DNA from: Candidatus Saccharimonadales bacterium
GTDB taxonomy: Bacteria; Patescibacteriota; Saccharimonadia; Saccharimonadales; UBA10212
Reading direction: 5' to 3'
NCBI GenBank assembly: GCA_038245195.1
Contig: JBBRSU010000001.1
Location: forward strand, 192,121 to 256,120
Length of the DNA: 64,000 bases
Both the position numbers and the translations under genes were made by a program. The notes under the pieces are model-generated. The model made no database searches. It was not told the origin of the DNA and saw nothing but the letters and a program-made list of their open reading frames with translations. Positions 38,858 to 46,461 of the stretch are shown here, one piece after another. Every line of letters begins with the position of its first letter. Positions within the stretch are counted from its first letter, which is position 1.

Positions 38858-38934
38858 TGGTACCCCCGGCAAGATTCGAACTTGCGACCTTGAGCTTAGA
38901 AGTCTCCTGCTCTATCCAACTGAGCTACGGGGGC
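38858..38934 (-). tRNA. tRNA-Arg (TCT), CCA encoded
   Basis: GCCCCCG...GGAGA-CTTCTAA-GCTCA...CGGGGGT-A-CCA. The anticodon stem has two mismatched end pairs, and 1:72 is G-U. Confidence 0.8.
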
Positions 38935-39049
38935 AAAATTGAAGGACAACCTACGGTTTTCCTTCAACACCCGGTCGGCACAAGCCGAGTTTGCAAGCAA
39001 ACCAAGCCGGGCTACTATCTTTCCCTGGAATAGGAAAAGACAAGAACAA
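38935..39049 (-). ncRNA. unclassified structured RNA (copy B), exactly filling the spacer between tRNA-Gly and tRNA-Arg
   Basis: Paralogue of 11346-11460. The terminal hairpin TTGAAGGA-A-AACC-GTA-GGTT-G-TCCTTCAA is identical, and the three-way-junction helices covary. Confidence 0.55.
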
Positions 39050-39124
39050 TGGTGCGGGATGGGGTAGTCGAAACCCCGTCTTAAGTTTGGAAAACTTACA
39101 TATTAACCGTTATACGAATCCCGC
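39050..39124 (-). tRNA. tRNA-Gly (TCC), CCA encoded
   Basis: GCGGGAT...TAAGT-TTTCCAA-ACTTA-AGAC-GGGGT-TTCGACT-ACCCC-ATCCCGC-A-CCA. Confidence 0.88.
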
Positions 39125-39208: not shown

Positions 39209-40441
39209 GTGAAAACACAACGCAAAAAACTGAAGACCTGGAAGGTAAAGTTTACTATATTCTCAGGCTTAGCTATTCTCGTAATATCCTCGTGGTTTCT
39301 CGGTAGAACAGCAGCTGCTCCATGTCTATCAGATAGCCAAGTGCTATCAGCGAATACCACAAAAATAATTAAACCTAAAGCCATTTTAACCAAGCACGAA
39401 GTAAATGCTCCGGATGCAAAAGTCGTTTCAAATACTAATAATGTGGTTCTTCCGCCGCTACATACAGGCTTAAGTACAAGTAGCGAACCACAGTTGCGTA
39501 GGCTCGCAACATATGAACAATCTGCTGGGGGGGCGGTCGCTTCGGGTATGATGATTTTCACAGAATTGTCTTCGAATAATGCCGATGCACAATCAGCGGC
39601 AGTAGATATGGCAAAATGTCTAAGTAATTTTGCGACCTATAATATAAAACCAATTATTATAATGGAGCCAACTTTAAATGGAAGTGCTGTTAGCTTTAGC
39701 TCCTATCGAAACGGTGCATATGACTCGGTTTTAGACAAGTACTTTAGTGCGTTAAAAGGTGCAGGTGTGACTGATAGCGAAATGGGTCTTTGGACATACT
39801 TCCCAGAGGCAAATCTGCCGCAATGGGGTCCAGTAGATGTAGCTGATTTCGCACCAAACGTGATAAGGACGGTCAATATCCAGAAGAAGTATTTTCCGAC
39901 CAGCAAGGCGAGTATTATGCTAGATGCTGAAAGCTATCCATCTGGTAGTACGGATTGGGGTAATGGTTCATATGTAAATCTTTCCCCATTTATTAATGGA
40001 ATTCCTCGGGGCTTGATAGATAGCTTCGGACTTCAGGGTTTTCCTTGGGCCCCCCCAGCTAATCAGGGTGGCGACCCAAGTTACGACCCTTCGATTTATT
40101 TAGCTAGCAATCTAGCCATTCAAACTGCTCAACAAATGGGGCTATCAAGTGTCTGGCTCAATACCGGTACTTTTGCAGCGATGTATGCCAACGATAAGTC
40201 CCAGACTGTAAATATGTCTGCCACCCAACGCCAACAACTGCTAAATGGAGTTATTACTCAGGCTGAGAACATAAAGAATTCTGGACTTAAAGTTTCCATA
40301 AATTTATTTAGTGAAGATAAATCAAAAAGTGATGAAGCAACCGACTGGTCTTATCAAACATCAGATGCCCAAGCCGTATTTAAGTCATTCTCCCAACAGC
40401 TTTTTTTGGACAATATAGAGCTATGGCTATTCGATAACTAA
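39209..40441 (+). CDS. secreted or membrane-anchored protein, possibly a glycoside-hydrolase-like TIM barrel
   Basis: N-terminal signal anchor. Alternating beta/alpha-like pattern (IIIMEPTL, WTYFPEAN, FGLQGFPWAP). Function unproven. The GTG start is uncertain. Confidence 0.5.
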   Translation: MKTQRKKLKTWKVKFTIFSGLAILVISSWFLGRTAAAPCLSDSQVLSANTTKIIKPKAILTKHEVNAPDAKVVSNTNNVVLPPLHTGLSTSSEPQLRRLATYEQSAGGAVASGMMIFTELSSNNADAQSAAVDMAKCLSNFATYNIKPIIIMEPTLNGSAVSFSSYRNGAYDSVLDKYFSALKGAGVTDSEMGLWTYFPEANLPQWGPVDVADFAPNVIRTVNIQKKYFPTSKASIMLDAESYPSGSTDWGNGSYVNLSPFINGIPRGLIDSFGLQGFPWAPPANQGGDPSYDPSIYLASNLAIQTAQQMGLSSVWLNTGTFAAMYANDKSQTVNMSATQRQQLLNGVITQAENIKNSGLKVSINLFSEDKSKSDEATDWSYQTSDAQAVFKSFSQQLFLDNIELWLFDN

Positions 40442-42426
40442 AGTTGCGGTTGAATTTCAGCTAAAGCTTGTTTGACTGTCTCGACCGCAATCCCAGTGGA
40501 CTTAAGATAGGCTAGTTGTGAATCAAGGTCCGATTGGTAGGTGTTATAGGGTTCTGTGGTCTTGTTTAAGCTTGAATCCACCTGGTGATATACAAGTACT
40601 AACCAGGTGTTGGTAGCCTGTGCTTGCTGAATCCATGATTGGACTTGTGCTAGCGTGGTTGTTGCAAGTAAGTTTTGAACTTTTATATCATAGATGTCAA
40701 AGTTACTTTTTGCGTTATATCCATCCTCGACACCTCGATGAGAGGCGTAATACTGCTTAACATTGTTTAATACTGTTTGATTATAGGCCCCATACGGTGA
40801 TGCAAAGTCAGTTACCGGTAACCCGATCAGTGTCTGAAGCGTTAGTTGAGAATTCTTAAGTTCCGTATTTAGCTTTATCGTTCCCTGGGACGTAAGATCG
40901 GGATGGTCTACAGTATGAGAGCCTATCTCGTGCCCCGCGAGAGATAATTGTTTAACCTGGGCGGTTGTCATATACTGTGGGTCGCCCAGATAACCGCTAA
41001 CAATATAATCGGTCGCTTTAAATCCATACTTATTCAAGATTGGCAGCCCATTATTGAAGTAACTTTGCCACCCATCATCAAAGGTTAGGGTTACAATCGG
41101 GCGGTTAAACCCCACGACACTATATGGGCTTAAGTTGAAGTCATCGGTTTGGAGCCAACCAACGCTGTAGATACTATGATAAATGCTTACTGATACTGCA
41201 TTAGCAGGTGTAGTGAACTGAATCCTAAACTTTGTCCAGTTAGTTTTATCGGGATAGGTAGCACCCAGATAAAGGTATTGAGTAGTTCCGTCTGATAGGT
41301 TTATACCAGCATCAACTTCAGTCACAACGCTAGCTTTGTAATAGTCAGTAAAGTCATATTGATGATTGGCGACTACCGGTTGAGGAGCAAAATACCAATA
41401 GCTTGCACCACTAGAATAGCTATTCATCTTGACCTTTAGACTGCGGCTACCACTGTGCCCAGATGTATTTAGGTAGCTAAAGCTTGTAGAGTTTGTCCCC
41501 CAAGTGCCTTTATTCCATCCCTGAGGCAAACTTGAGTTACTTGGGTCAGCAGTTTCGACCGAAGGATTAGGCACAATGTTACCAGAATTAATGCTAGCAT
41601 TGGAAACATTAACATTAATTGGTGTTGCGGAAACAGTTTGACTGTCATTAGTAGTGGCAGTCGCACCTATGGTGTGTGAGCCATTGATTAGTTTAGTAGT
41701 GTCCCAGCTAAGTTGATAAGGAGCAAAAGTCACAGGGTTGCCAAAATTTACTCCATCGATTTGAAACTGAATGTTGCTAATACCACTTGGTGAACTGGCG
41801 CTAGCAGTAATTTGTCTAGTGCCCGAAACGGCTGAATTAGCAGATGGGGAAGTAATTGCCGCTGTTGGTCCAGCGACTACAGTCGATATCGAATAATCAT
41901 CGCTTTGGAGCCAGCCGACATTGTTTATGAGATGAAAAATAGTCACATTCTTGGCCGTGATTGGAGCCGTAAAATTCAAACTGGCTTGATTCCAGGTGCT
42001 TATGCTGGGCGTCTGGATGCCTAAGTCGCTGTAGCTAAAATGTCCGGCTCCATCGTCGAATTGAGCAACAATGTCACTTGAAATGCTAGATTCGTAATAG
42101 TCGGAGAAACTGTATTGGCTACCACCTGTAATTGCAATTGGGCTAAAGTACCACTTGGCATCACCATTCGTGTAGTTGGAGATATCAACCCGAATCCCTT
42201 TGGATCCAGTGTGGGCAGCTGAAGGGTAACTAAATGTAGCTGAATTTGTACCCCAATTACCCTGAAGCCAACCTTGCGGCAGGCTGGAATTTACGGAATC
42301 GCTACTCTCAACTGAAGAATTATTTATTAGATTAACTGGAGCAGCCTTAGCGGTATGAAGACAAATAGGCAGCAAATTTGCAGCTGCGATCACGGCGAAA
42401 TATAGAAATGCGTATAATTTTTTCAT
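40438..42426 (-). CDS. secreted polysaccharide deacetylase (CE4/NodB) with two CBM-like repeats and an Ig-like domain
   Basis: Signal peptide. Duplicated NSSLPQGW..GTWGTNS modules. NodB motifs TFDDGW and HEIGSHTVDHPDL. Confidence 0.85.
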   Translation of the reverse strand: MKKLYAFLYFAVIAAANLLPICLHTAKAAPVNLINNSSVESSDSVNSSLPQGWLQGNWGTNSATFSYPSAAHTGSKGIRVDISNYTNGDAKWYFSPIAITGGSQYSFSDYYESSISSDIVAQFDDGAGHFSYSDLGIQTPSISTWNQASLNFTAPITAKNVTIFHLINNVGWLQSDDYSISTVVAGPTAAITSPSANSAVSGTRQITASASSPSGISNIQFQIDGVNFGNPVTFAPYQLSWDTTKLINGSHTIGATATTNDSQTVSATPINVNVSNASINSGNIVPNPSVETADPSNSSLPQGWNKGTWGTNSTSFSYLNTSGHSGSRSLKVKMNSYSSGASYWYFAPQPVVANHQYDFTDYYKASVVTEVDAGINLSDGTTQYLYLGATYPDKTNWTKFRIQFTTPANAVSVSIYHSIYSVGWLQTDDFNLSPYSVVGFNRPIVTLTFDDGWQSYFNNGLPILNKYGFKATDYIVSGYLGDPQYMTTAQVKQLSLAGHEIGSHTVDHPDLTSQGTIKLNTELKNSQLTLQTLIGLPVTDFASPYGAYNQTVLNNVKQYYASHRGVEDGYNAKSNFDIYDIKVQNLLATTTLAQVQSWIQQAQATNTWLVLVYHQVDSSLNKTTEPYNTYQSDLDSQLAYLKSTGIAVETVKQALAEIQPQL

Positions 42427-42661
42427 TTAAATCCGAAAACTTTAAATAACATTATATACGATAAATAACATGTTTGTCAATATCTCAACAATTCAAAGAC
42501 TAAGCGTAAACATATTAAATAATACTATTTACAAAAGCACATTAATATAGTATTCTAGTAACCAAGACGAGTTTGAGGTTTTGAACTGCCTGTACGAATT
42601 TCTTGTGCAGGGGCTAAGAAACATACAGACCCGGACTAAATAATCATAAAGGAGCTTCAGC

Positions 42662-42841
42662 ATGAGTGGAAGTGGACAAGTACTGGGTTGCAGTACAACT
42701 GCTTGCAGTGTGGCGTTATTGCCTAACACTGGTGGTTCCCGCGCTCTGTTCTGGGTTGGCATGGTTGCTCTTGGTATCGGCCTTCTGACGTTGGCTGTGA
42801 CCGGGGCTGTAAGCCTAAAGCAGCGTATGAACCGCGGATAA
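42662..42841 (+). CDS. 59-aa LPXTG mini-protein (sortase substrate candidate)
   Basis: SD AAAGGAG 7 nt upstream. MSGSGQVLGCSTTACSVALLPNTG-G + hydrophobic helix + KQRMNRG is a complete cell-wall sorting signal. No N-terminal signal peptide. Missed by the ORF track (below 60 aa). Confidence 0.6.
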   Translation: MSGSGQVLGCSTTACSVALLPNTGGSRALFWVGMVALGIGLLTLAVTGAVSLKQRMNRG

Positions 42842-42919
42842 GGTAGCAATACCTTAATCGGACAACGGTGTGGTGAACTTAATTGTTTGCTACTCCGTTT
42901 TCTCTTGAAAGTAGGAACA

Positions 42920-43513
42920 ATGAAATATTTTTATAAGAAGCAAGTAATAATAATTGCTAGTTTGATGTTTATTATTGGCTTGGCCGGAAGCCTGCCAACT
43001 TTCTATTATCTATTAACCAATCGCGGATCAGTTAGTTCGCACGCACTACCCAGACCGCCTAGTATTCAGGTAAGCCACCGAACACCTCTAATAAGTGGTC
43101 AGCCAGTTGCTATATCTATTCCGAGTGTAGATATTAATATCCCAGTTATTAATGGTTACTACAACCAAAGAACCAAGGATTGGAGCCTATCTTTAGACAA
43201 GGCACAGTTCGCTACGCCTACAGTTATCCCAAATAATCAAACGGGCAACACCTTCATCTATGGGCATTATAGGCTAGGTGTTTTCTATACTTTGCCACAT
43301 GTTCAGTCTGGTGCTGAGGCGACTATAATCACTGATAACGGCTACAAATTTACTTATAAGTTTTATTCTACCTATGCCACACAACCGACTGACTTATCAG
43401 TCTTGACCTACAAAGGCCCACCCATGCTAACATTGCAAACTTGCTCTGGTACATGGTATCAAAACCGACAAATGTACCTGTTCAGTTATGTCGGTTATCA
43501 AAAAGCTTCTTAA
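42920..43513 (+). CDS. sortase (transpeptidase)
   Basis: N-terminal TM anchor, catalytic His (IYGHY), LTLQTCSG (TLxTC) and a downstream Arg (YQNRQ). The ATG at 42920 is preferred over the TTG at 42887. Confidence 0.85.
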   Translation: MKYFYKKQVIIIASLMFIIGLAGSLPTFYYLLTNRGSVSSHALPRPPSIQVSHRTPLISGQPVAISIPSVDINIPVINGYYNQRTKDWSLSLDKAQFATPTVIPNNQTGNTFIYGHYRLGVFYTLPHVQSGAEATIITDNGYKFTYKFYSTYATQPTDLSVLTYKGPPMLTLQTCSGTWYQNRQMYLFSYVGYQKAS

Positions 43514-43519
43514 ATAAAT

Positions 43520-43711
43520 TTACTTGGAAGTGGTGTTCGATACTGAATTAGTACCCGTAGTCCTACTAAAGTTCTTCACAAAGTTACCAACCGAGTAGAA
43601 ATGATATGCTACAAACGCGAATACTAGAAGTACTATAAGTGCTTCTAGGGACTTCTGAGCTATTGATTTTGCCGTTAGTCGGACGGACTGTTTCTTTAGT
43701 TGCCTATTCAT
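43520..43711 (-). CDS. small single-pass membrane protein coupled to the GT2 synthase
   Basis: 63 aa with one TM helix. Its start overlaps the GT2 stop by 4 nt. Confidence 0.5.
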   Translation of the reverse strand: MNRQLKKQSVRLTAKSIAQKSLEALIVLLVFAFVAYHFYSVGNFVKNFSRTTGTNSVSNTTSK

Positions 43712-44844
43712 CGAGCTGTGTCCCGTAAAGCTTTAGTATCCAGCGAATATCGGCGGCCCTCAGTCTGCCAGCCGACTATTTGGGTTCTGAATTTTCTTAA
43801 TACAATTACCTCTATGAACGCTTTAATAAATATTGTTAATTCGATCATCCGCATAAAATAGAACAAGGGGAAAACGCTCATTATAGAAAACCGTTTGGCC
43901 GATATAGCCGTAAAAACTGCTAACATTGAAATAAATAGATAGTCAGCTAGGAAAACAGAGGGTATTGCAACCCACCGGTGTGGATGCGTGTTGATTATGA
44001 CCAGTGGCAAAACAACAGTCATCTGTAGTAGATAAATCGACGTCTCAAGTAGTTGATAGCCAATATAGAGATCGATGGCTTGAGGCCTTGTACCGACTTT
44101 ATATTTCCTCACTCCTTGGAAAAAACCACGATGCCACCTAGAGGTTTGGATACAAAAATCCTTCAGTGTTTGCGGATCTTGGGTGTAGTTTATAGCTCCT
44201 GGGATGTACTTAATCTTCCCTAGTTTTAAACGGTGAAATTGTAAAGTAAGGTCAAAGTCTTCTGTGAGGCTTTCAGCCGAGAAGTCTAGCTTAGAAATTA
44301 TGTCCGTTCTAAGACTAGTGACTGGTCCAGGGAAAACCGAAACCATACCCATCCAGGACTGCAACCGGCGTAGAACTTGTTGGCCATAAGTATAACTAAA
44401 CACTCGATATTTACTTATCCAATTACCTCGTAGGCTTTGGACAAAGCCCACTGCGGCCACATATCTCTTACCGATTAAGTTGCGACGATAAATTCGGAAG
44501 TAATTCTTACCAAATACACTGTCTGCATCAGCGACATGTAGCCACTGATATCGTTTCTCTATCTCAAAGTAAGCAATTGCCTGATAGACAGCTCTAGCTT
44601 TGCCACTGCGTTTTACGCTCAGCACTTGCTTTCTACCCAGCATAGCGACTGCCTCTTTGCGAGTTCTATCCGTCGAGGAGTCATCAACCACAAAGATATT
44701 ATCTTTGGATTGACCAGCAGCAATCGCTGAACGAATAGTGGACTTAATAATCAGCTCTTCATTATGAGCCGGAAGCAGTAATGCCATCTTTCGTTTGTAA
44801 ACGCGATTGGCATTCTTTGATTGATTCTTAGGTGTTTTTCCCAT
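43708..44844 (-). CDS. processive family-2 glycosyltransferase (PgaC/IcaA/cellulose-synthase-like) with C-terminal TM domain
   Basis: DDSSTD, HVADADS (DxD), LTEDFDLT (TED) and QTSRWHRG (QxxRW) motifs, plus 3-4 C-terminal helices. Confidence 0.85.
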   Translation of the reverse strand: MGKTPKNQSKNANRVYKRKMALLLPAHNEELIIKSTIRSAIAAGQSKDNIFVVDDSSTDRTRKEAVAMLGRKQVLSVKRSGKARAVYQAIAYFEIEKRYQWLHVADADSVFGKNYFRIYRRNLIGKRYVAAVGFVQSLRGNWISKYRVFSYTYGQQVLRRLQSWMGMVSVFPGPVTSLRTDIISKLDFSAESLTEDFDLTLQFHRLKLGKIKYIPGAINYTQDPQTLKDFCIQTSRWHRGFFQGVRKYKVGTRPQAIDLYIGYQLLETSIYLLQMTVVLPLVIINTHPHRWVAIPSVFLADYLFISMLAVFTAISAKRFSIMSVFPLFYFMRMIELTIFIKAFIEVIVLRKFRTQIVGWQTEGRRYSLDTKALRDTAR

Positions 44845-44910: not shown

Positions 44911-46461
44911 TTAGGCTTCGTGGATCACGGAGATGTGGGCACCGAGACTATTTAGGCGGTCGGCCAGATCTTCATAACCTCTGTTAATCGTATAAACGTT
45001 GCGCAACATGGAAATCCCAGAAGGGGCCAGCATGCCAATTAATAAGATCACCGCTGGGCGTAAACCGCTGGGAGCCACTATATCTGATGCCCGCCAGCGA
45101 GTTGGACCGTCTACAAAGATTCGGTGTGGGTCGGCTAGTTCGAGATTGACGCCAATTTTTTTCATCTCGGTATACATTAAGGCTCGGTCTTCATAGACCC
45201 AGTCGTGGATTAAGGTCCGACCTTTGGCCACAGCCACAATTGGCACAAAATACGGCAGGTTATCGATGTTGATGCCGGCTCCGCCGGTTAGTGGGTGAAT
45301 TTTCTCTTCTGGAGCTTTAAGCTCGCCGTTGTGCTTATGAACTCTAATATCAACTAGGTTTGTCTGGCCATTGTCAGCCTTATAAACCTCAGTCATATCA
45401 GTTTTGAGGCCCATCTTATTTAGCTTTAAAAGTTCTAGTTCCAAGAAGTCGATTGGAACCCGTTTGATGGTAAAAGACGAATTGGTGGTTATAGCTGCCG
45501 CTAAGAAGGTCATAGCTTCTACTGGGTCCTCGGCTGGTGAGTAGCTAATATTCTTCTTGATGATTCTTACACCCTTAATCTTCAGAGTATTAGTGCCTAT
45601 TCCATCGATCTTAACACCCAGTTTTTGCAAGAAATAACAGAGATCTCGGACCATATAATTGGCGCTAGCTTGTTTAATTACAGTTTCACCTTCGAAGCGA
45701 GCAGCCGCAATCAGGGCGTTTTCGGTGGCCACGTCACTCATCTCGTACATTACGACTGGCTCTTTTGGCAAGCTTCGCTTAACTGTCACATTGTAATGTC
45801 CACTGTGAGCCACAATTTTAACTCCAAATTCTTCCAAAGCGTAGATATGCGGCAGAATGGTTCTCCGCCCTAGCTCACAACCGCCAGCATAGGGGATTTG
45901 AAACTCCGAAAATTCGTGCATTAAGCTACCGGCTAGCATAATTACAATCCGCGTCTTGCGAGCGGCTTCTTTATTCAGTTTTGATAAATCTAGTGTCTTG
46001 GGGGGCCTAATCTCTAACTCATTGTTAGCCAGCCACTTAATTTGCACTCCAATACTGGATAATACTTCGATAATTCGATTAACTTCTTCAATCCGAGCGA
46101 CTCGTTTTAAGCGAGTAACTCCTTTGTTTAATAAACTGGCACATAAAATAGCCACAGCGGCGTTTTTGGAAGTTTTGAGCTCAATTTCGCCCTTGAGTTC
46201 ATGGCCGCCTTCGATTCGTAGATTGATAGCCCCACCACTTAGCGAAATAAGCTGTTTATTAAGTACGTCGCTAATGCGAGCAAGCGTATCCAAGCTAAGA
46301 TTTTGTTTGCCGTGTTCGATACGGTTAACGGCTGATTGGCTTGTACCTAGCTGTTTGGCAAAACCGGCCTGGGTTAAACCGCGTTCTTGCCGTATCTGGT
46401 AAATTAAACGGCCAATTTTTTGATTTGTTTCGTGCATTAACTCAAAAATAATATCATCCAA
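44911..46461 (-). CDS. murA: UDP-N-acetylglucosamine 1-carboxyvinyltransferase fused to an N-terminal XRE-type HTH domain
   Basis: Residues ~15-70 form an HTH (RGLTQAGFAKQLGTSQSAVNRIEHG). The MurA body starts at LRIEGGHELKGEIELKTSKNAA, with the active-site loop YAGGCELGRR. Start is TTG at 46461 or ATG 24 nt downstream. Confidence 0.88.
   Translation of the reverse strand: MDDIIFELMHETNQKIGRLIYQIRQERGLTQAGFAKQLGTSQSAVNRIEHGKQNLSLDTLARISDVLNKQLISLSGGAINLRIEGGHELKGEIELKTSKNAAVAILCASLLNKGVTRLKRVARIEEVNRIIEVLSSIGVQIKWLANNELEIRPPKTLDLSKLNKEAARKTRIVIMLAGSLMHEFSEFQIPYAGGCELGRRTILPHIYALEEFGVKIVAHSGHYNVTVKRSLPKEPVVMYEMSDVATENALIAAARFEGETVIKQASANYMVRDLCYFLQKLGVKIDGIGTNTLKIKGVRIIKKNISYSPAEDPVEAMTFLAAAITTNSSFTIKRVPIDFLELELLKLNKMGLKTDMTEVYKADNGQTNLVDIRVHKHNGELKAPEEKIHPLTGGAGINIDNLPYFVPIVAVAKGRTLIHDWVYEDRALMYTEMKKIGVNLELADPHRIFVDGPTRWRASDIVAPSGLRPAVILLIGMLAPSGISMLRNVYTINRGYEDLADRLNSLGAHISVIHEA

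What the first reader, a model, noticed from the sequence alone, without database searches (positions are those of the whole stretch)
42662..43513. 59-aa LPXTG mini-protein without a signal peptide, paired with its own sortase
An unannotated ORF (42662-41, good SD) encodes MSGSGQVLGCSTTACSVALLPNTGGSRALFWVGMVALGIGLLTLAVTGAVSLKQRMNRG.

Residues 20-59 are a textbook cell-wall sorting signal: LPNTG, a hydrophobic helix, and a positively charged tail. Only 19 residues precede the LPNTG motif and there is no Sec signal peptide. The next gene is a sortase with His, TLxTC and Arg motifs.

Sortase cleavage would release or anchor a 23-residue peptide that contains a C-STTA-C pair, a possible disulfide loop. 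This is far smaller than any typical surface protein or pilin.

The short N-terminal tail could reach the outside through N-out insertion of the C-terminal helix. The arrangement suggests a sortase-attached surface or signalling peptide, or a peptide-capping module. It may be relevant to an epibiotic lifestyle.

No other LPXTG protein is present in this window.
Basis: partly seen in the sequence, partly recalled or inferred. Interest (0 to 1): 0.66.

Follow-up and report, generated by a model that had tools for sequence, protein, structure and literature searches.

The report
Mini LPXTG peptide with dedicated sortase
A 59-residue protein that is little more than a cell-wall sorting signal, with no export signal, sits next to its own sortase; the pair is conserved across Saccharibacteria beside a sugar-polymer synthase, so it looks like an undescribed way of decorating the cell envelope.

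Summary
The ORF at 42662-42841 encodes a 19-residue uncharged N-tail, then LPNTG, a 25-residue hydrophobic segment and a basic tail. It has a strong Shine-Dalgarno site and no Sec-type signal. A sortase with the His/TLxTC/Arg triad starts 79 nt downstream.

This is not a chance ORF or a gene remnant:
- Of 73 related sortase loci with usable upstream DNA, 72 carry an LPxTG gene just upstream. 63 are complete 42-70 aa minis.
- dN/dS is about 0.12, including in the N-tail.
- An exhaustive profile search found 244 representatives. The best 150 are 48-139 aa, and all 11 outliers I inspected were start-codon miscalls, frameshifts or sorting-signal-only mini hits.

New findings:
- The mini gene has its own promoter and a stable downstream hairpin.
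- The sortase lies next to a PgaC-like processive glycosyltransferase in 47/47 loci, usually translationally coupled.
- A CE4 deacetylase is usually nearby.

The Cys pair is specific to this clade. A conserved 'MY' N-terminus is unexplained.

The most likely mechanism is Pf3-coat-like N-out insertion, followed by sortase transfer of a ~20-residue peptide to peptidoglycan. The acceptor is untested. I found no publication or curated family for it. I rate it a new variant of a known kind.

The parts
42528..42556 (+). Promoter-like site of the mini gene: -35 TTTACA, 17-nt spacer, -10 TATTCT, preceded by an AT-rich stretch
   Evidence: Consensus scan. The hexamers and the upstream AAACATATTAAA(T/A)AATA block are conserved in L013 and L010.
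42563..42661 (+). Inferred ~100-nt 5' leader with the Shine-Dalgarno AAGGAG at 42649-42654 and an in-frame TAA at 42647-42649
   Evidence: Sequence. A conserved AAGACGAG lies near the inferred transcript start. No Rfam match at E<=1.
42662..42841 (+). Mini LPXTG pre-peptide gene, 59 aa. N-tail residues 1-19 (42662-42718). LPNTG residues 20-24 (42719-42733). Hydrophobic segment A28-L52 (42743-42817). Basic tail KQRMNRG (42818-42838). Stop codon 42839-42841.
   Evidence: 11 close homologues of 57-78 aa. 63 complete minis upstream of related sortases. dN/dS 0.12 against L013.
42860..42908 (+). Stem-loop followed by CCGTTTTCTCTT between the mini gene and the sortase gene: an intrinsic-terminator or attenuator-like element
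   Evidence: The terminator scan gives a stem at 42870-42893 with a T-rich tail. The 78 nt from the stop codon fold at -27.2 kcal/mol, z -3.9. In the family, dG <= -25 in 41/59 post-stop windows against 43/600 random windows.
42920..43513 (+). Sortase, 197 aa. N-terminal membrane helix at residues 6-34. Catalytic H116 (43265-43267), C175 in TLQTC (43442-43444) and R183 (43466-43468).
   Evidence: Pfam PF04203 E=3e-18. No NCBIfam class model reaches its cut-off. Invariant triad. AF2 model pLDDT 91.8. Foldseek top hits are class A and class E sortases.
43708..44844 (-). Family-2 glycosyltransferase, PgaC/IcaA/NodC-like, with the QxxRW motif (QTSRW). It is convergent with the sortase here. In most relatives it lies directly downstream of the sortase on the same strand.
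   Evidence: Adjacent to the sortase in 47/47 loci of at least 4 kb. A typical member aligns end to end with TIGR03937 PgaC_IcaA at E=5e-45. QxxRW is present in 43/45.
43520..43711 (-). 63-aa single-helix ORF overlapping the GT2 stop by 4 nt. Possibly the split-off last helix of the synthase, or a small partner subunit.
   Evidence: It is found only where the GT2 gene is on the opposite strand to the sortase, as here (window, L013, L010, L004, L006), and these GT2s are mostly short.
40438..42426 (-). Secreted 662-aa protein with Ig-like, CBM_4_9 and CE4 polysaccharide-deacetylase domains, divergent from the mini gene
   Evidence: A homologue is within the cassette in 35/47 loci and in L089-L094.
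44911..46461 (-). HTH_3 + EPSP-synthase-fold (MurA-like) fusion protein, a recurrent neighbour of the cassette
   Evidence: Present in 17/47 loci and in L089/L090 and L093/L094.

Best explanation
This is a dedicated two-gene sorting module.

**Step 1, expression (anatomy shown, expression inferred).** The mini gene is made from its own promoter. A terminator-like hairpin follows it. I infer that the mini is produced in excess over the enzyme.

**Step 2, insertion (inferred).** The 59-aa product has no Sec signal. It would insert after translation with its C-terminal helix in the membrane, the basic tail in the cytoplasm and the short uncharged N-tail pushed outside. This is how the 44-aa Pf3 coat protein is inserted by YidC.

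**Step 3, cleavage (inferred from the invariant motif and the intact triad).** The membrane-anchored sortase encoded next door cleaves LPNT|G and forms a thioester with Thr23.

**Step 4, transfer (inferred, least certain).** The 23-residue peptide MSGSGQVLGCSTTACSVALLPNT is passed to an envelope amine. The most likely acceptor is the side-chain or cross-bridge amine of lipid II. This would give peptidoglycan a dense coat of short, uncharged peptides rich in Gly, Ala, Thr and Val, and would occupy stem-peptide amines.

**Context (linkage shown, functional coupling inferred).** The module is one part of a conserved envelope cassette: a CE4 deacetylase with carbohydrate-binding modules, the mini gene, the sortase and a PgaC-like processive GT2 synthase. 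I infer that the peptide coat is laid down together with a GlcNAc-type surface polymer.
For: **A real, selected gene**
- 11 close homologues of 57-78 aa have LLPNTGGSR invariant.
- 63 complete minis (57 distinct sequences) lie 50-280 nt upstream of sortases that are 37-71% identical to this one. Nearly all have ATG starts and Shine-Dalgarno sites.
- Five more loci are partial at contig ends and one is frameshifted. Only one locus (L028) lacks it.
- dN/dS is 0.04-0.24 in 38 of the 39 close pairs that could be scored (one more was saturated). By region it is 0.125 in the N-tail, 0 in the motif and 0.141 in the helix plus tail.

**The family is mini-only**
- A profile search found 405 clusters. 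The top 120 are 55-73 aa.
- An exhaustive HMM search of 1.84 billion representatives gave 244 hits. The best 150 are 48-139 aa.
- All 11 outliers I inspected were upstream start miscalls, frameshifts or sorting-signal-only mini hits.

**Substrate features**
- P and T are invariant, and L and G are at least 90% conserved.
- PF00746 hits 20/39 minis and TIGR01167 hits 21/39.

**Topology**
- N-tails are 9-28 aa with net charge -1 to +1 and no hydrophobic core.
- C-tails are +3 or +4 in 51/57.

**Enzyme**
- Sortase domain, invariant H/C/R, N-terminal helix and sortase fold.

**Expression design**
- Conserved promoter and a stable hairpin after the stop codon.

**Independent check starting from the mini**
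- 3 of 3 look-ups gave mini, then sortase, then GT2, preceded by a CE4 gene.

**Relatives with a conventional substrate**
- In L083 and L086 the same sortase-GT2 pair follows an ordinary signal-peptide LPXTG protein. This shows that sortases of this type serve LPXTG substrates encoded just upstream.
Against: - There is no biochemical or expression evidence of any kind.
- Insertion without a signal peptide is argued from charge and length only. YidC dependence was not tested, and I did not look for yidC.
- The acceptor is unknown. The operon link to a polysaccharide synthase is not explained by plain peptidoglycan anchoring.
- The N-tail and the cytoplasmic tail (ARxVAKKAYKA in most members) are more conserved than a passive decoration or a generic sorting signal would need.
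- The conserved 'MY' start (48/57 in loci, 108/127 in the database) has no role in this model.
- I could not survey whole genomes for other LPXTG proteins or a second sortase. Southlakia has two sortases and conventional LPXTG-like proteins, so 'dedicated' rests on adjacency alone.
- The window copy scores just under the TIGR01167 cut-off.
Confidence: 0.55

Rival explanations
1. The peptide is joined to, or anchors, the polysaccharide rather than plain peptidoglycan. In one version, the sortase uses an amine of the de-N-acetylated GlcNAc-type polymer as nucleophile. The polymer would be made by the adjacent GT2 and trimmed by the CE4 deacetylase. In another version, the Thr/Ser-rich N-tail carries the glycan and the sortase then fixes the glycopeptide to the wall.
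For: - The sortase is adjacent to the GT2 in 47/47 loci. In about 35 the two are on the same strand, with gaps of 0-21 nt or overlapping.
- The GT2 is PgaC-like over its full length, and QxxRW is present in 43/45.
- A CE4 deacetylase is present in 35/47 loci.
- GT2 orientation changed in some clades while adjacency was kept.
- The long-type substrates in L083/L086 are S/T/N/G-rich, like glycosylated stalks.
- The GT2's second-best NCBIfam match is the XrtG-associated glycosyltransferase family, another case of a sorting enzyme paired with a GT2.
Against: - No sortase is known to use a polysaccharide acceptor in vivo.
- From my own knowledge, the 2-amino group of GlcN is a poor sortase nucleophile in vitro compared with primary CH2-NH2 amines.
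- Processive GT2 synthases are not known to start on peptide acceptors.
- Some of the synteny may reflect shared ancestry within one class.
Confidence: 0.15
2. The mini-protein is not consumed as a substrate. It is a small membrane subunit or pseudo-substrate that docks on the sortase, or on the GT2 synthase, and stabilises or regulates it. This would be analogous to SafA for actinobacterial SrtA, or to IcaD/PgaD for PNAG synthases.
For: - Small single-helix proteins encoded beside sortases (SafA, 52 aa) and beside PgaC/IcaA are established partners (PMC9282373; my own knowledge for IcaD/PgaD).
- The helix and cytoplasmic tail are under purifying selection, dN/dS 0.141.
Against: - An invariant LPxTG with P and T never changing is the signature of catalysis, not of helix packing.
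- SafA is downstream of srtA, is N-in/C-out, uses an FPW motif and has no sorting motif. None of these applies here.
- A separately terminated, strongly initiated gene points to excess over the enzyme, which is unlike a 1:1 subunit.
Confidence: 0.1
3. The sortase acts as a maturation protease or ligase for a released peptide. Water could resolve the thioester and free a ~23-residue signalling or antimicrobial peptide. The CX4C loop in this clade would then matter.
For: - The gene design (precursor gene with its own terminator, followed by the processing enzyme) resembles peptide-pheromone and bacteriocin loci.
- The N-tail is under purifying selection among close relatives but differs between clades.
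- A CX4C pair arose in two separate clades.
Against: - The neighbourhoods contain no transporter, immunity, receptor kinase or modification genes. They contain GT2, CE4, GH10 and MurA-like genes instead.
- There is one precursor copy per locus.
- The composition (23% Gly, 19% Ala, 13% Val, 12.5% Thr, nearly uncharged) is unlike known pheromones or bacteriocins.
- Cys pairs occur in only 4/57 minis.
Confidence: 0.08
4. The sortase polymerises or cyclises the mini-peptide. The N-terminal amine, or a Lys of one copy, would attack the LPNT-thioester of the next. The result would be a repetitive fibre or a head-to-tail cyclic peptide.
For: - The 'MY' N-terminus is strongly conserved (48/57 and 108/127). 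Tyr at position 2 should keep Met1, my inference from the known rules of methionine aminopeptidase.
- High expression relative to the enzyme would suit a structural polymer.
Against: - Lys is present in only 30/57 N-tails and is absent from the window copy.
- There is no pilin-like fold or motif.
- The model shows no class C lid.
- An N-formyl or Met-Tyr terminus is not a known sortase nucleophile.
Confidence: 0.05
5. The sORF is a chance ORF, or the decayed 3' end of a former large surface-protein gene.
For: - The window copy scores marginally below the TIGR01167 cut-off.
- An overlapping 106-aa ORF exists on the opposite strand.
Against: - The small size is conserved across sortase divergence down to 37% identity.
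- Shine-Dalgarno sites and ATG starts are conserved.
- dN/dS is about 0.12.
- The upstream frame is closed by a stop codon.
- No long homologue appears among the 150 best of 244 exhaustive hits.
Confidence: 0.01

Closest known systems
Canonical LPXTG surface proteins and housekeeping sortases (classes A and E)
   Same: LPXTG pentapeptide, hydrophobic segment and basic tail. A membrane-anchored Cys transpeptidase with the His/Cys/Arg triad and the sortase beta-barrel fold. The nearest solved structures are class A and class E enzymes.
   Different: - All characterised substrates have an N-terminal Sec signal and a folded or repetitive passenger. Here there is no signal peptide and only 9-28 residues precede the motif.
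- The enzyme reaches no NCBIfam class cut-off: 18-39 bits against 140-166.
- It is about 20% identical to solved sortases.
Dedicated sortase-substrate pairs encoded side by side (SrtB-IsdC, class C sortases with pilins, class D with spore proteins)
   Same: One specialised sortase is encoded beside its cognate substrate gene. Motif variants track clades here: LPNTG, LPFTG, LPSTG, LPATG and MPKTG.
   Different: Those substrates are full-size, signal-peptide-bearing proteins. There is no conserved pilin Lys here (30/57 minis have any Lys) and no lid in the model.
SafA, the 52-aa membrane protein encoded next to actinobacterial srtA (PMC9282373)
   Same: A conserved single-helix mini-protein of about 50-60 aa that is genetically linked to a sortase.
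   Different: SafA lies downstream, is N-in/C-out, acts through an exoplasmic FPW motif to shield SrtA from signal peptidase, and has no sorting motif. The Saccharibacteria protein lies upstream, is predicted N-out/C-in, and has an invariant LPxTG.
Pf3 coat protein and other YidC-only N-out mini membrane proteins (PMC9421054, PMC8548208)
   Same: About 45-60 aa, no signal peptide, one helix, a short weakly charged N-tail that must cross the membrane, and a basic C-terminus inside.
   Different: There is no homology, and Pf3 is not processed after insertion. YidC dependence here is inference only.
EPS-linked C-terminal sorting systems: PEP-CTERM/exosortase (PMC1569441) and the XrtG system with its TIGR03111 GT2
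   Same: A C-terminal sorting enzyme is genetically tied to exopolysaccharide synthesis. The cassette's GT2 has TIGR03111 as its second-best NCBIfam match.
   Different: The enzyme family is different (a sortase, not an exosortase), as are the motif and the phylum. Exosortase substrates carry signal peptides.
NCBIfam NF058583 'LAXTG motif-containing small protein' and NF033073 'doubled motif LPXTG anchor'
   Same: Curators already recognise small sortase-motif proteins and doubled motifs. L003/L004 carry LPATG...MPKTG.
   Different: Only 1/39 minis (E=0.029) and 4/39 minis (best E=0.0058) give weak hits, so the minis are not members. I could not read the family descriptions.
ica/pga poly-N-acetylglucosamine loci
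   Same: A PgaC/IcaA-like GT2 with QxxRW and a CE4 deacetylase.
   Different: No ica/pga locus is known to include a sortase or an LPXTG gene. Scores are far below the equivalog cut-off (154 against 422 bits). The polymer is unknown.
Sortase-anchored hydrophobic coat proteins (Streptomyces long chaplins; Actinoplanes CwpA/CwpB, PMC13251363)
   Same: Sortase-dependent attachment of hydrophobic sequences that change surface properties.
   Different: Those are class E/LAXTG substrates. From my own knowledge, chaplins carry signal peptides and folded or amyloid domains; I did not check this for CwpA/CwpB.

Membership tests
Sortase superfamily (PF04203) | Sortase domain profile match above the curated cut-off | tested here: met
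   66.1 bits against 26.6, E=3.2e-18.
Sortase superfamily (PF04203) | Catalytic His, TLxTC Cys and Arg | tested here: met
   H116, C175 (TLQTC) and R183 are invariant in 9 and in 78 homologues.
Sortase superfamily (PF04203) | Eight-stranded beta-barrel fold with an N-terminal membrane anchor | tested here: met
   AF2 pLDDT 91.8, helix at residues 6-34. Foldseek probability is 1.00 to class A, E and C sortases, with TM-score normalised to the target of 0.5-0.75.
Sortase classes A-F (NCBIfam class models) | Score at or above the class cut-off | tested here: not met
   Best is class D at 36.6-39.3 bits against 140-165. Class F scores 27, class E 20 and class C 18. The class is unassigned.
LPXTG cell-wall sorting signal (TIGR01167 / PF00746) | LPXTG, then a hydrophobic segment, then a basic tail at the C-terminus | tested here: met
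   Sequence. Family statistics.
LPXTG cell-wall sorting signal (TIGR01167 / PF00746) | Profile score above the curated cut-off | tested here: inconclusive
   The window copy scores 15.6 against 15.9 bits. 21/39 minis hit TIGR01167 and 20/39 hit PF00746 at E<=0.1.
Canonical sortase substrates | N-terminal Sec signal peptide | tested here: not met
   - No basic n-region in the window copy.
- The best 9-residue hydrophobicity of the N-tail is 1.36 (family median 1.52, maximum 2.41). Real signal peptides in these loci score 2.4-2.7.
- 11/57 N-tails are shorter than 16 aa.
- No dedicated signal-peptide predictor was available.
Canonical sortase substrates | Cleavage at T|G and amide linkage to peptidoglycan | not testable with these tools
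   Needs enzymology or muropeptide mass spectrometry.
SafA-type sortase-associated factor | Gene immediately downstream of srtA; N-in/C-out; exoplasmic FPW motif; no sorting motif | tested here: not met
   The gene is upstream. The charge distribution predicts N-out/C-in. FW is seen only in the window clade and lies inside the helix. LPxTG is invariant.
Pilin / class C sortase polymerisation | Conserved Lys nucleophile (pilin motif) in the substrate, and a lid in the sortase | tested here: not met
   Lys is present in 30/57 N-tails and absent from the window copy. The model has no lid helix.
YidC-only N-out mini membrane proteins (Pf3-coat type) | Single helix, short N-tail with few charges, no signal peptide, basic C-terminal flank | tested here: met
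   N-tail 9-28 aa with net charge -1 to +1. Helix 19-28 residues. C-tail net +3 or +4 in 51/57.
YidC-only N-out mini membrane proteins (Pf3-coat type) | Insertion depends on YidC and not on Sec | not testable with these tools
I did not search for yidC.
PNAG-type synthase loci (pgaABCD / icaADBC) | Processive GT2 with QxxRW plus a CE4 de-N-acetylase | tested here: met
PNAG-type synthase loci (pgaABCD / icaADBC) | Equivalog-level match to PgaC/IcaA; product is beta-1,6-GlcNAc | tested here: not met
   74-154 bits against a cut-off of 422. The polymer cannot be identified with these tools.
RiPP / peptide-pheromone precursor loci | Transporter, immunity, modification or receptor genes next to the precursor | tested here: not met
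   The neighbours are GT2, CE4, GH10, a MurA-like fusion and housekeeping genes.
NCBIfam NF058583 LAXTG motif-containing small protein | Profile match | tested here: not met
   1 of 39 minis matches, at E=0.029.

The most novel reading that the evidence does not exclude
The sortase of this cassette does not perform ordinary wall anchoring. Instead it couples the signal-less mini-peptide to the GlcNAc-type polymer made by its operon partner, or polymerises the peptide itself. Either would create a covalent peptide-polysaccharide or peptide-polymer surface layer. That would be a new acceptor chemistry for sortases, and a new sortase-based way to build or fix an exopolysaccharide coat in ultra-small bacteria.
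Probability: 0.17. Interest if true: 0.85.

Novelty: new variant of a known kind. Interest (0 to 1): 0.68.

Why it matters
- **It breaks the textbook substrate definition.** Every characterised sortase substrate enters the pathway through a Sec signal peptide and carries a passenger domain. A conserved, selected family of 50-60-residue substrates with neither would be the minimal natural sortase substrate.
- **It implies another entry route.** Substrates could reach the sortase pathway by insertase-type N-tail translocation.
- **The synthase link is unexplained.** The tight link of the sortase to a PgaC-like synthase points to a connection between protein sorting and polysaccharide coat assembly, in a phylum whose envelope biology is almost unknown.
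- **It is practical to test.** The pair is small: a 23-residue peptide and a 150-residue catalytic domain. It can be assayed in vitro and could yield a new sortase/tag pair for protein ligation.
- **It affects annotation.** The minis are annotated as 'hypothetical protein' or missed altogether, so surveys of sortase substrates that require a signal peptide will have overlooked them.

Tried and rejected
- **Source record.** An exact look-up of the window's sortase (P0012) found no gene on record, so the source genome and its annotation could not be read. A later exact look-up showed that both proteins are in the collection, from a 287-kb NCBI contig.
- **RNA elements.** Rfam found only tRNAs in the window at gathering thresholds. 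It found nothing at E<=1 in 42400-42960, so there is no known riboswitch or leader.
- **Terminator counts.** A strict perfect-stem terminator scan found only 16/59 sites. It missed bulged stems and stems that pair with the T-run. I replaced it with an MFE comparison against random windows. The T-run count stays imprecise.
- **Sortase class.** Neither NCBIfam nor PDB sequence or fold comparison singles out one class.
- **GT2 against PDB sequences.** No hit at E<=1e-3.
- **Literature.** Eight full-text searches found no paper describing mini LPXTG proteins, signal-less sortase substrates, or sortase-GT2 operons in Saccharibacteria or other CPR bacteria. The CPR pilus preprint (10.64898/2026.03.03.709456) concerns donor-strand-exchange pili and is unrelated.
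- **Hidden signal peptide.** I considered that the N-tail might be a cryptic Sec signal and rejected it. The hydrophobicity is too low and many N-tails are too short.
- **Long precursor.** I considered an upstream extension and rejected it, because an in-frame TAA lies 12 nt upstream.
- **Cys loop as the key feature.** Rejected, because it is present in only 4/57 minis.
- **Not possible.**
  - A genome-wide census of LPXTG proteins and sortases in cassette-bearing genomes, because only flanks of up to 10 kb can be fetched.
Full report
**1. What is in the window**

- An in-frame TAA at 42647-42649 closes the frame, so there is no hidden longer N-terminus.
- AAGGAG sits 7 nt before the ATG.
- Residues 20-24 are LPNTG. 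A28-L52 is uncharged and hydrophobic. The last seven residues carry three basic charges.
- The generic sorting-signal model TIGR01167 scores 15.6 bits against a cut-off of 15.9.

The next gene, 42920-43513, matches the Pfam sortase domain at E=3e-18.
- His116, Cys175 (TLQTC) and Arg183 are invariant in 78 homologues.
- The AlphaFold2 model (pLDDT 91.8) has an N-terminal membrane helix and a sortase barrel.
- Foldseek places it nearest to class A and class E sortases, at about 20% identity.
- The best PDB sequence hit is SrtE1 at E=8e-5.
- No NCBIfam class model comes near its cut-off.

My scan of all six frames found no other LPXTG-type C-terminal signal in the 64 kb.

**2. Is the small ORF real?**

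A search of 5.8 billion proteins returned 11 homologues of 57-78 aa. LLPNTGGSR is invariant in them.

I fetched sortase relatives from 8 Saccharibacteria genomes and 80 metagenome contigs. Their sortases are 37-71% identical to the window's. Counting the window, that makes 89 loci:

| Outcome | Loci |
|---|---|
| Complete mini gene (42-70 aa, 57 distinct sequences) ending 50-280 nt upstream of the sortase, same strand | 63 |
| Conventional longer LPXTG gene in that position | 2 |
| Expected gene present but cut by a contig end (4 loci show only the helix/tail end or a short stub; L084 is of the long type) | 6 |
| Frameshifted mini | 1 |
| Too little upstream DNA to judge | 16 |
| Genuinely lacks it (L028) | 1 |

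Nearly all complete minis have an ATG start and a Shine-Dalgarno site.

Evidence of selection:
- Nei-Gojobori dN/dS for 40 close pairs is 0.04-0.24, with one exception of 0.43 and one pair too saturated to score. Window against L013 is 0.12.
- By region, dN/dS is 0.125 for the N-tail, 0 for the motif and 0.141 for the helix plus tail.

The gene is therefore translated and under purifying selection along its whole length.

**3. The family**

A profile of 39 minis found 405 clusters at E<=1e-3. The best 120 are 55-73 aa. The few that carry a name are called 'hypothetical protein' from Candidatus Saccharimonadales, Saccharibacteria or Patescibacteria MAGs, or 'LPXTG-motif cell wall-anchored protein' (JGI).

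An exhaustive HMM search of 1.84 billion representatives gave 244 hits. The best 150 are 48-139 aa. All 11 outliers I inspected were upstream start miscalls, frameshifts or sorting-signal-only mini hits. No large surface protein shares this sorting signal at comparable scores.

Family features:
- Length is 49-70 aa, median 59.
- The N-tail is 9-28 aa, median 19. Its composition is Gly 23%, Ala 19%, Val 13% and Thr 12.5%, with net charge -1 to +1.
- A recurring VLGAxTTxxGAxV segment precedes the motif.
- The motif is LPNTG in 42/57 minis. Clade variants are LPFTG, LPSTG, LPATG, LPDTG and MPKTG.
- The helix is 19-28 residues.
- The tail is net +3 or +4 in 51/57 and often reads ARxVAKKAYKA.
- The N-tails lack a signal-peptide core. 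Their best 9-residue hydrophobicity has a median of 1.52, against 2.4-2.7 for real signal peptides in the same loci. Eleven N-tails are under 16 residues.
- The second residue is Tyr in 48/57 minis from the loci and 108/127 from the database. The codon is TAC 43 times and TAT 5 times. I have no explanation for this.
That is 4 of 57 distinct minis.

**4. Gene design**

Upstream of the mini gene there is a conserved promoter-like site. It reads TTTACA-17-TATTCT, with an AT-rich block before it, and is shared with L013 and L010. About 100 nt of leader follow, with no Rfam match.

Directly after the stop codon nearly every locus has a very stable stem-loop, usually with a T-run.
- Median dG is -27 kcal/mol over 78 nt, with a median z of -5.1.
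- dG <= -25 occurs in 41/59 post-stop windows against 43/600 random windows from the same loci.

The mini gene therefore looks like its own strongly expressed transcription unit, with attenuated read-through into the enzyme gene. This is the layout expected for a substrate or structural subunit made in excess. That last step is inference.

**5.

In all 47 loci with at least 4 kb, a family-2 glycosyltransferase lies next to the sortase.
- In about 35 it follows on the same strand, with a gap of 0-21 nt or an overlap. This suggests an operon with probable translational coupling.
- In the window's clade it is inverted but still adjacent.

A typical member aligns end to end with PgaC/IcaA at E=5e-45, which is below the equivalog cut-off. 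Its second-best match is the XrtG-associated GT2 family. 43 of 45 carry the QxxRW motif of processive synthases.

Other recurrent neighbours:
- A secreted CE4 polysaccharide deacetylase with CBM_4_9 and Ig-like domains is in the cassette in 35/47 loci.
- GH10-family proteins and an HTH-MurA-like fusion also recur.

Starting from three mini-proteins instead of from sortases gave the same order each time: CE4, mini, sortase, GT2.

Two relatives (L083, L086) keep the sortase-GT2 pair. In them it is preceded by a 178-187-aa protein with a signal peptide, an S/T/N/G-rich body and an LPXTG signal. This suggests that the minis are an extreme reduction of a low-complexity stalk-type substrate.

**6. 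Mechanism**

Shown:
- The motif is invariant and the enzyme is intact.
- The two genes are conserved neighbours.
- The charge asymmetry, the expression design and the synthase linkage are all present.

Inferred:
- The mini inserts after translation with its N-tail outside, as the Pf3 coat protein does through YidC (PMC9421054, PMC8548208).
- The sortase cleaves LPNT|G.
- The 23-residue peptide is transferred to an envelope amine, most likely on lipid II or peptidoglycan.

I give this composite model a confidence of 0.55. The weakest step is the acceptor. The operon link to a PgaC-like synthase and a deacetylase keeps open that the peptide is coupled to, or anchors, a GlcNAc-type polymer (0.15). 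The other rivals are:
- a SafA- or IcaD-like accessory role (0.10);
- a released peptide (0.08);
- polymerisation or cyclisation (0.05);
- a chance ORF or remnant (0.01, effectively refuted).

**7. Comparison with what is known**

It works like a sortase/LPXTG pair. The enzyme is a member of the sortase superfamily but of no defined class.

The substrate meets the C-terminal definition of a sorting signal. It fails the N-terminal signal-peptide feature shared by all characterised substrates.

It is not SafA, which has the opposite position, the opposite topology and no sorting motif (PMC9282373).

NCBIfam already holds a 'LAXTG motif-containing small protein' family and a 'doubled motif' family. 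Small sortase-motif proteins are therefore recognised as a kind, but the minis give only weak hits to them.

The pairing of a sorting enzyme with exopolysaccharide genes has a precedent in PEP-CTERM/exosortase systems (PMC1569441).

In the cultivated Saccharibacterium Southlakia, the Tn-seq table lists two sortases. One is essential. The other is a 199-aa 'class E sortase' whose disruption gives a growth advantage and which has no room for a mini gene upstream. Saccharibacteria can therefore have a housekeeping sortase as well as specialised ones.

Eight full-text searches found no description of this module.

**8. Verdict**

- Novelty: a new variant of a known kind.
- Interest: 0.68.

Noticed in passing
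window 43520-43711 (-): A 63-aa single-helix ORF overlaps the stop of the GT2 gene by 4 nt. The same arrangement occurs in L013, L010, L004 and L006, all loci where the GT2 gene is on the opposite strand to the sortase and is mostly short (369-416 aa; 454 in L006). It is absent where the GT2 follows the sortase on the same strand. It looks like a split-off last helix of the synthase, or an IcaD/PgaD-like partner.
   Followed up: partly
window 44911-46461 (-); also L089, L093 and 17 of 47 loci: A 516-aa fusion of an XRE-type HTH domain with an EPSP-synthase-fold (MurA-like) domain recurs beside the cassette. It could be a UDP-GlcNAc-sensing regulator. I know of no description of it.
   Followed up: no
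L083 2373-2936, L086 2361-2897, partial in L084: In these relatives the same sortase-GT2 pair is preceded by an ordinary 178-187-aa protein with a signal peptide, an S/T/N/G-rich body and LPNTG or LPKTG, instead of a mini. This is a possible ancestral state of the minis.
   Followed up: partly
L003 5759-5929, L004 5755-5925: These minis carry two motifs in tandem, MYNSTKGLLPATGAAVLMPKTG..., and the functional position reads MPKTG. NCBIfam has a 'doubled motif LPXTG anchor' family, to which 4 of 39 minis give weak hits.
   Followed up: no
family-wide (loci L001-L088, proteins P0132-P0247): The N-terminus 'MY' is conserved in 48/57 and 108/127 minis, with codon TAC 43 times and TAT 5 times. The window's clade starts MSGSG instead. 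No explanation was found.
   Followed up: partly
window 42689-42706; L080/L088 minis: A CX4C pair arose in two unrelated clades: GCSTTACS here and ACGAICTG in L080/L088/P0165. It is absent elsewhere in the family.
   Followed up: partly
L078 about 800-1000: The mini gene is present but frameshifted within the helix: MYGQGAGPQVLGWQLPNTGDNW... continues in another frame as ...IIVAKKAHKA. This is either an assembly error or a pseudogene.
   Followed up: no
L028 1-427: This is the only informative locus without an LPXTG gene upstream of the sortase. A ruvA-like gene is there instead. I did not search its downstream side for a relocated mini.
   Followed up: no
window 39209-40441 (+): A 410-aa protein with no Pfam or NCBIfam match is conserved next to the CE4 deacetylase gene in 6 loci.
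   Followed up: no
L025, L029, L030, L050, L089, L091 and others: Glycoside hydrolase family 10 proteins of 545-632 aa flank the cassette in at least 11 loci. This is odd beside a GlcNAc-type synthase and deacetylase.
   Followed up: no
Southlakia epibionticum ML1, SEML1_0327 and SEML1_0711 (supplement of PMC10633639): This cultivated Saccharibacterium has two sortases. A 448-aa one is scored essential or growth-defective. A 199-aa 'class E sortase' gives a growth advantage when disrupted. Only 57 nt separate it from the upstream gene and RNase Y follows it, so the cassette is not there.
   Followed up: partly
window 38861-39124 and elsewhere: There are twelve tRNA genes in the 64 kb, two of them just upstream of the cassette.
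   Followed up: no
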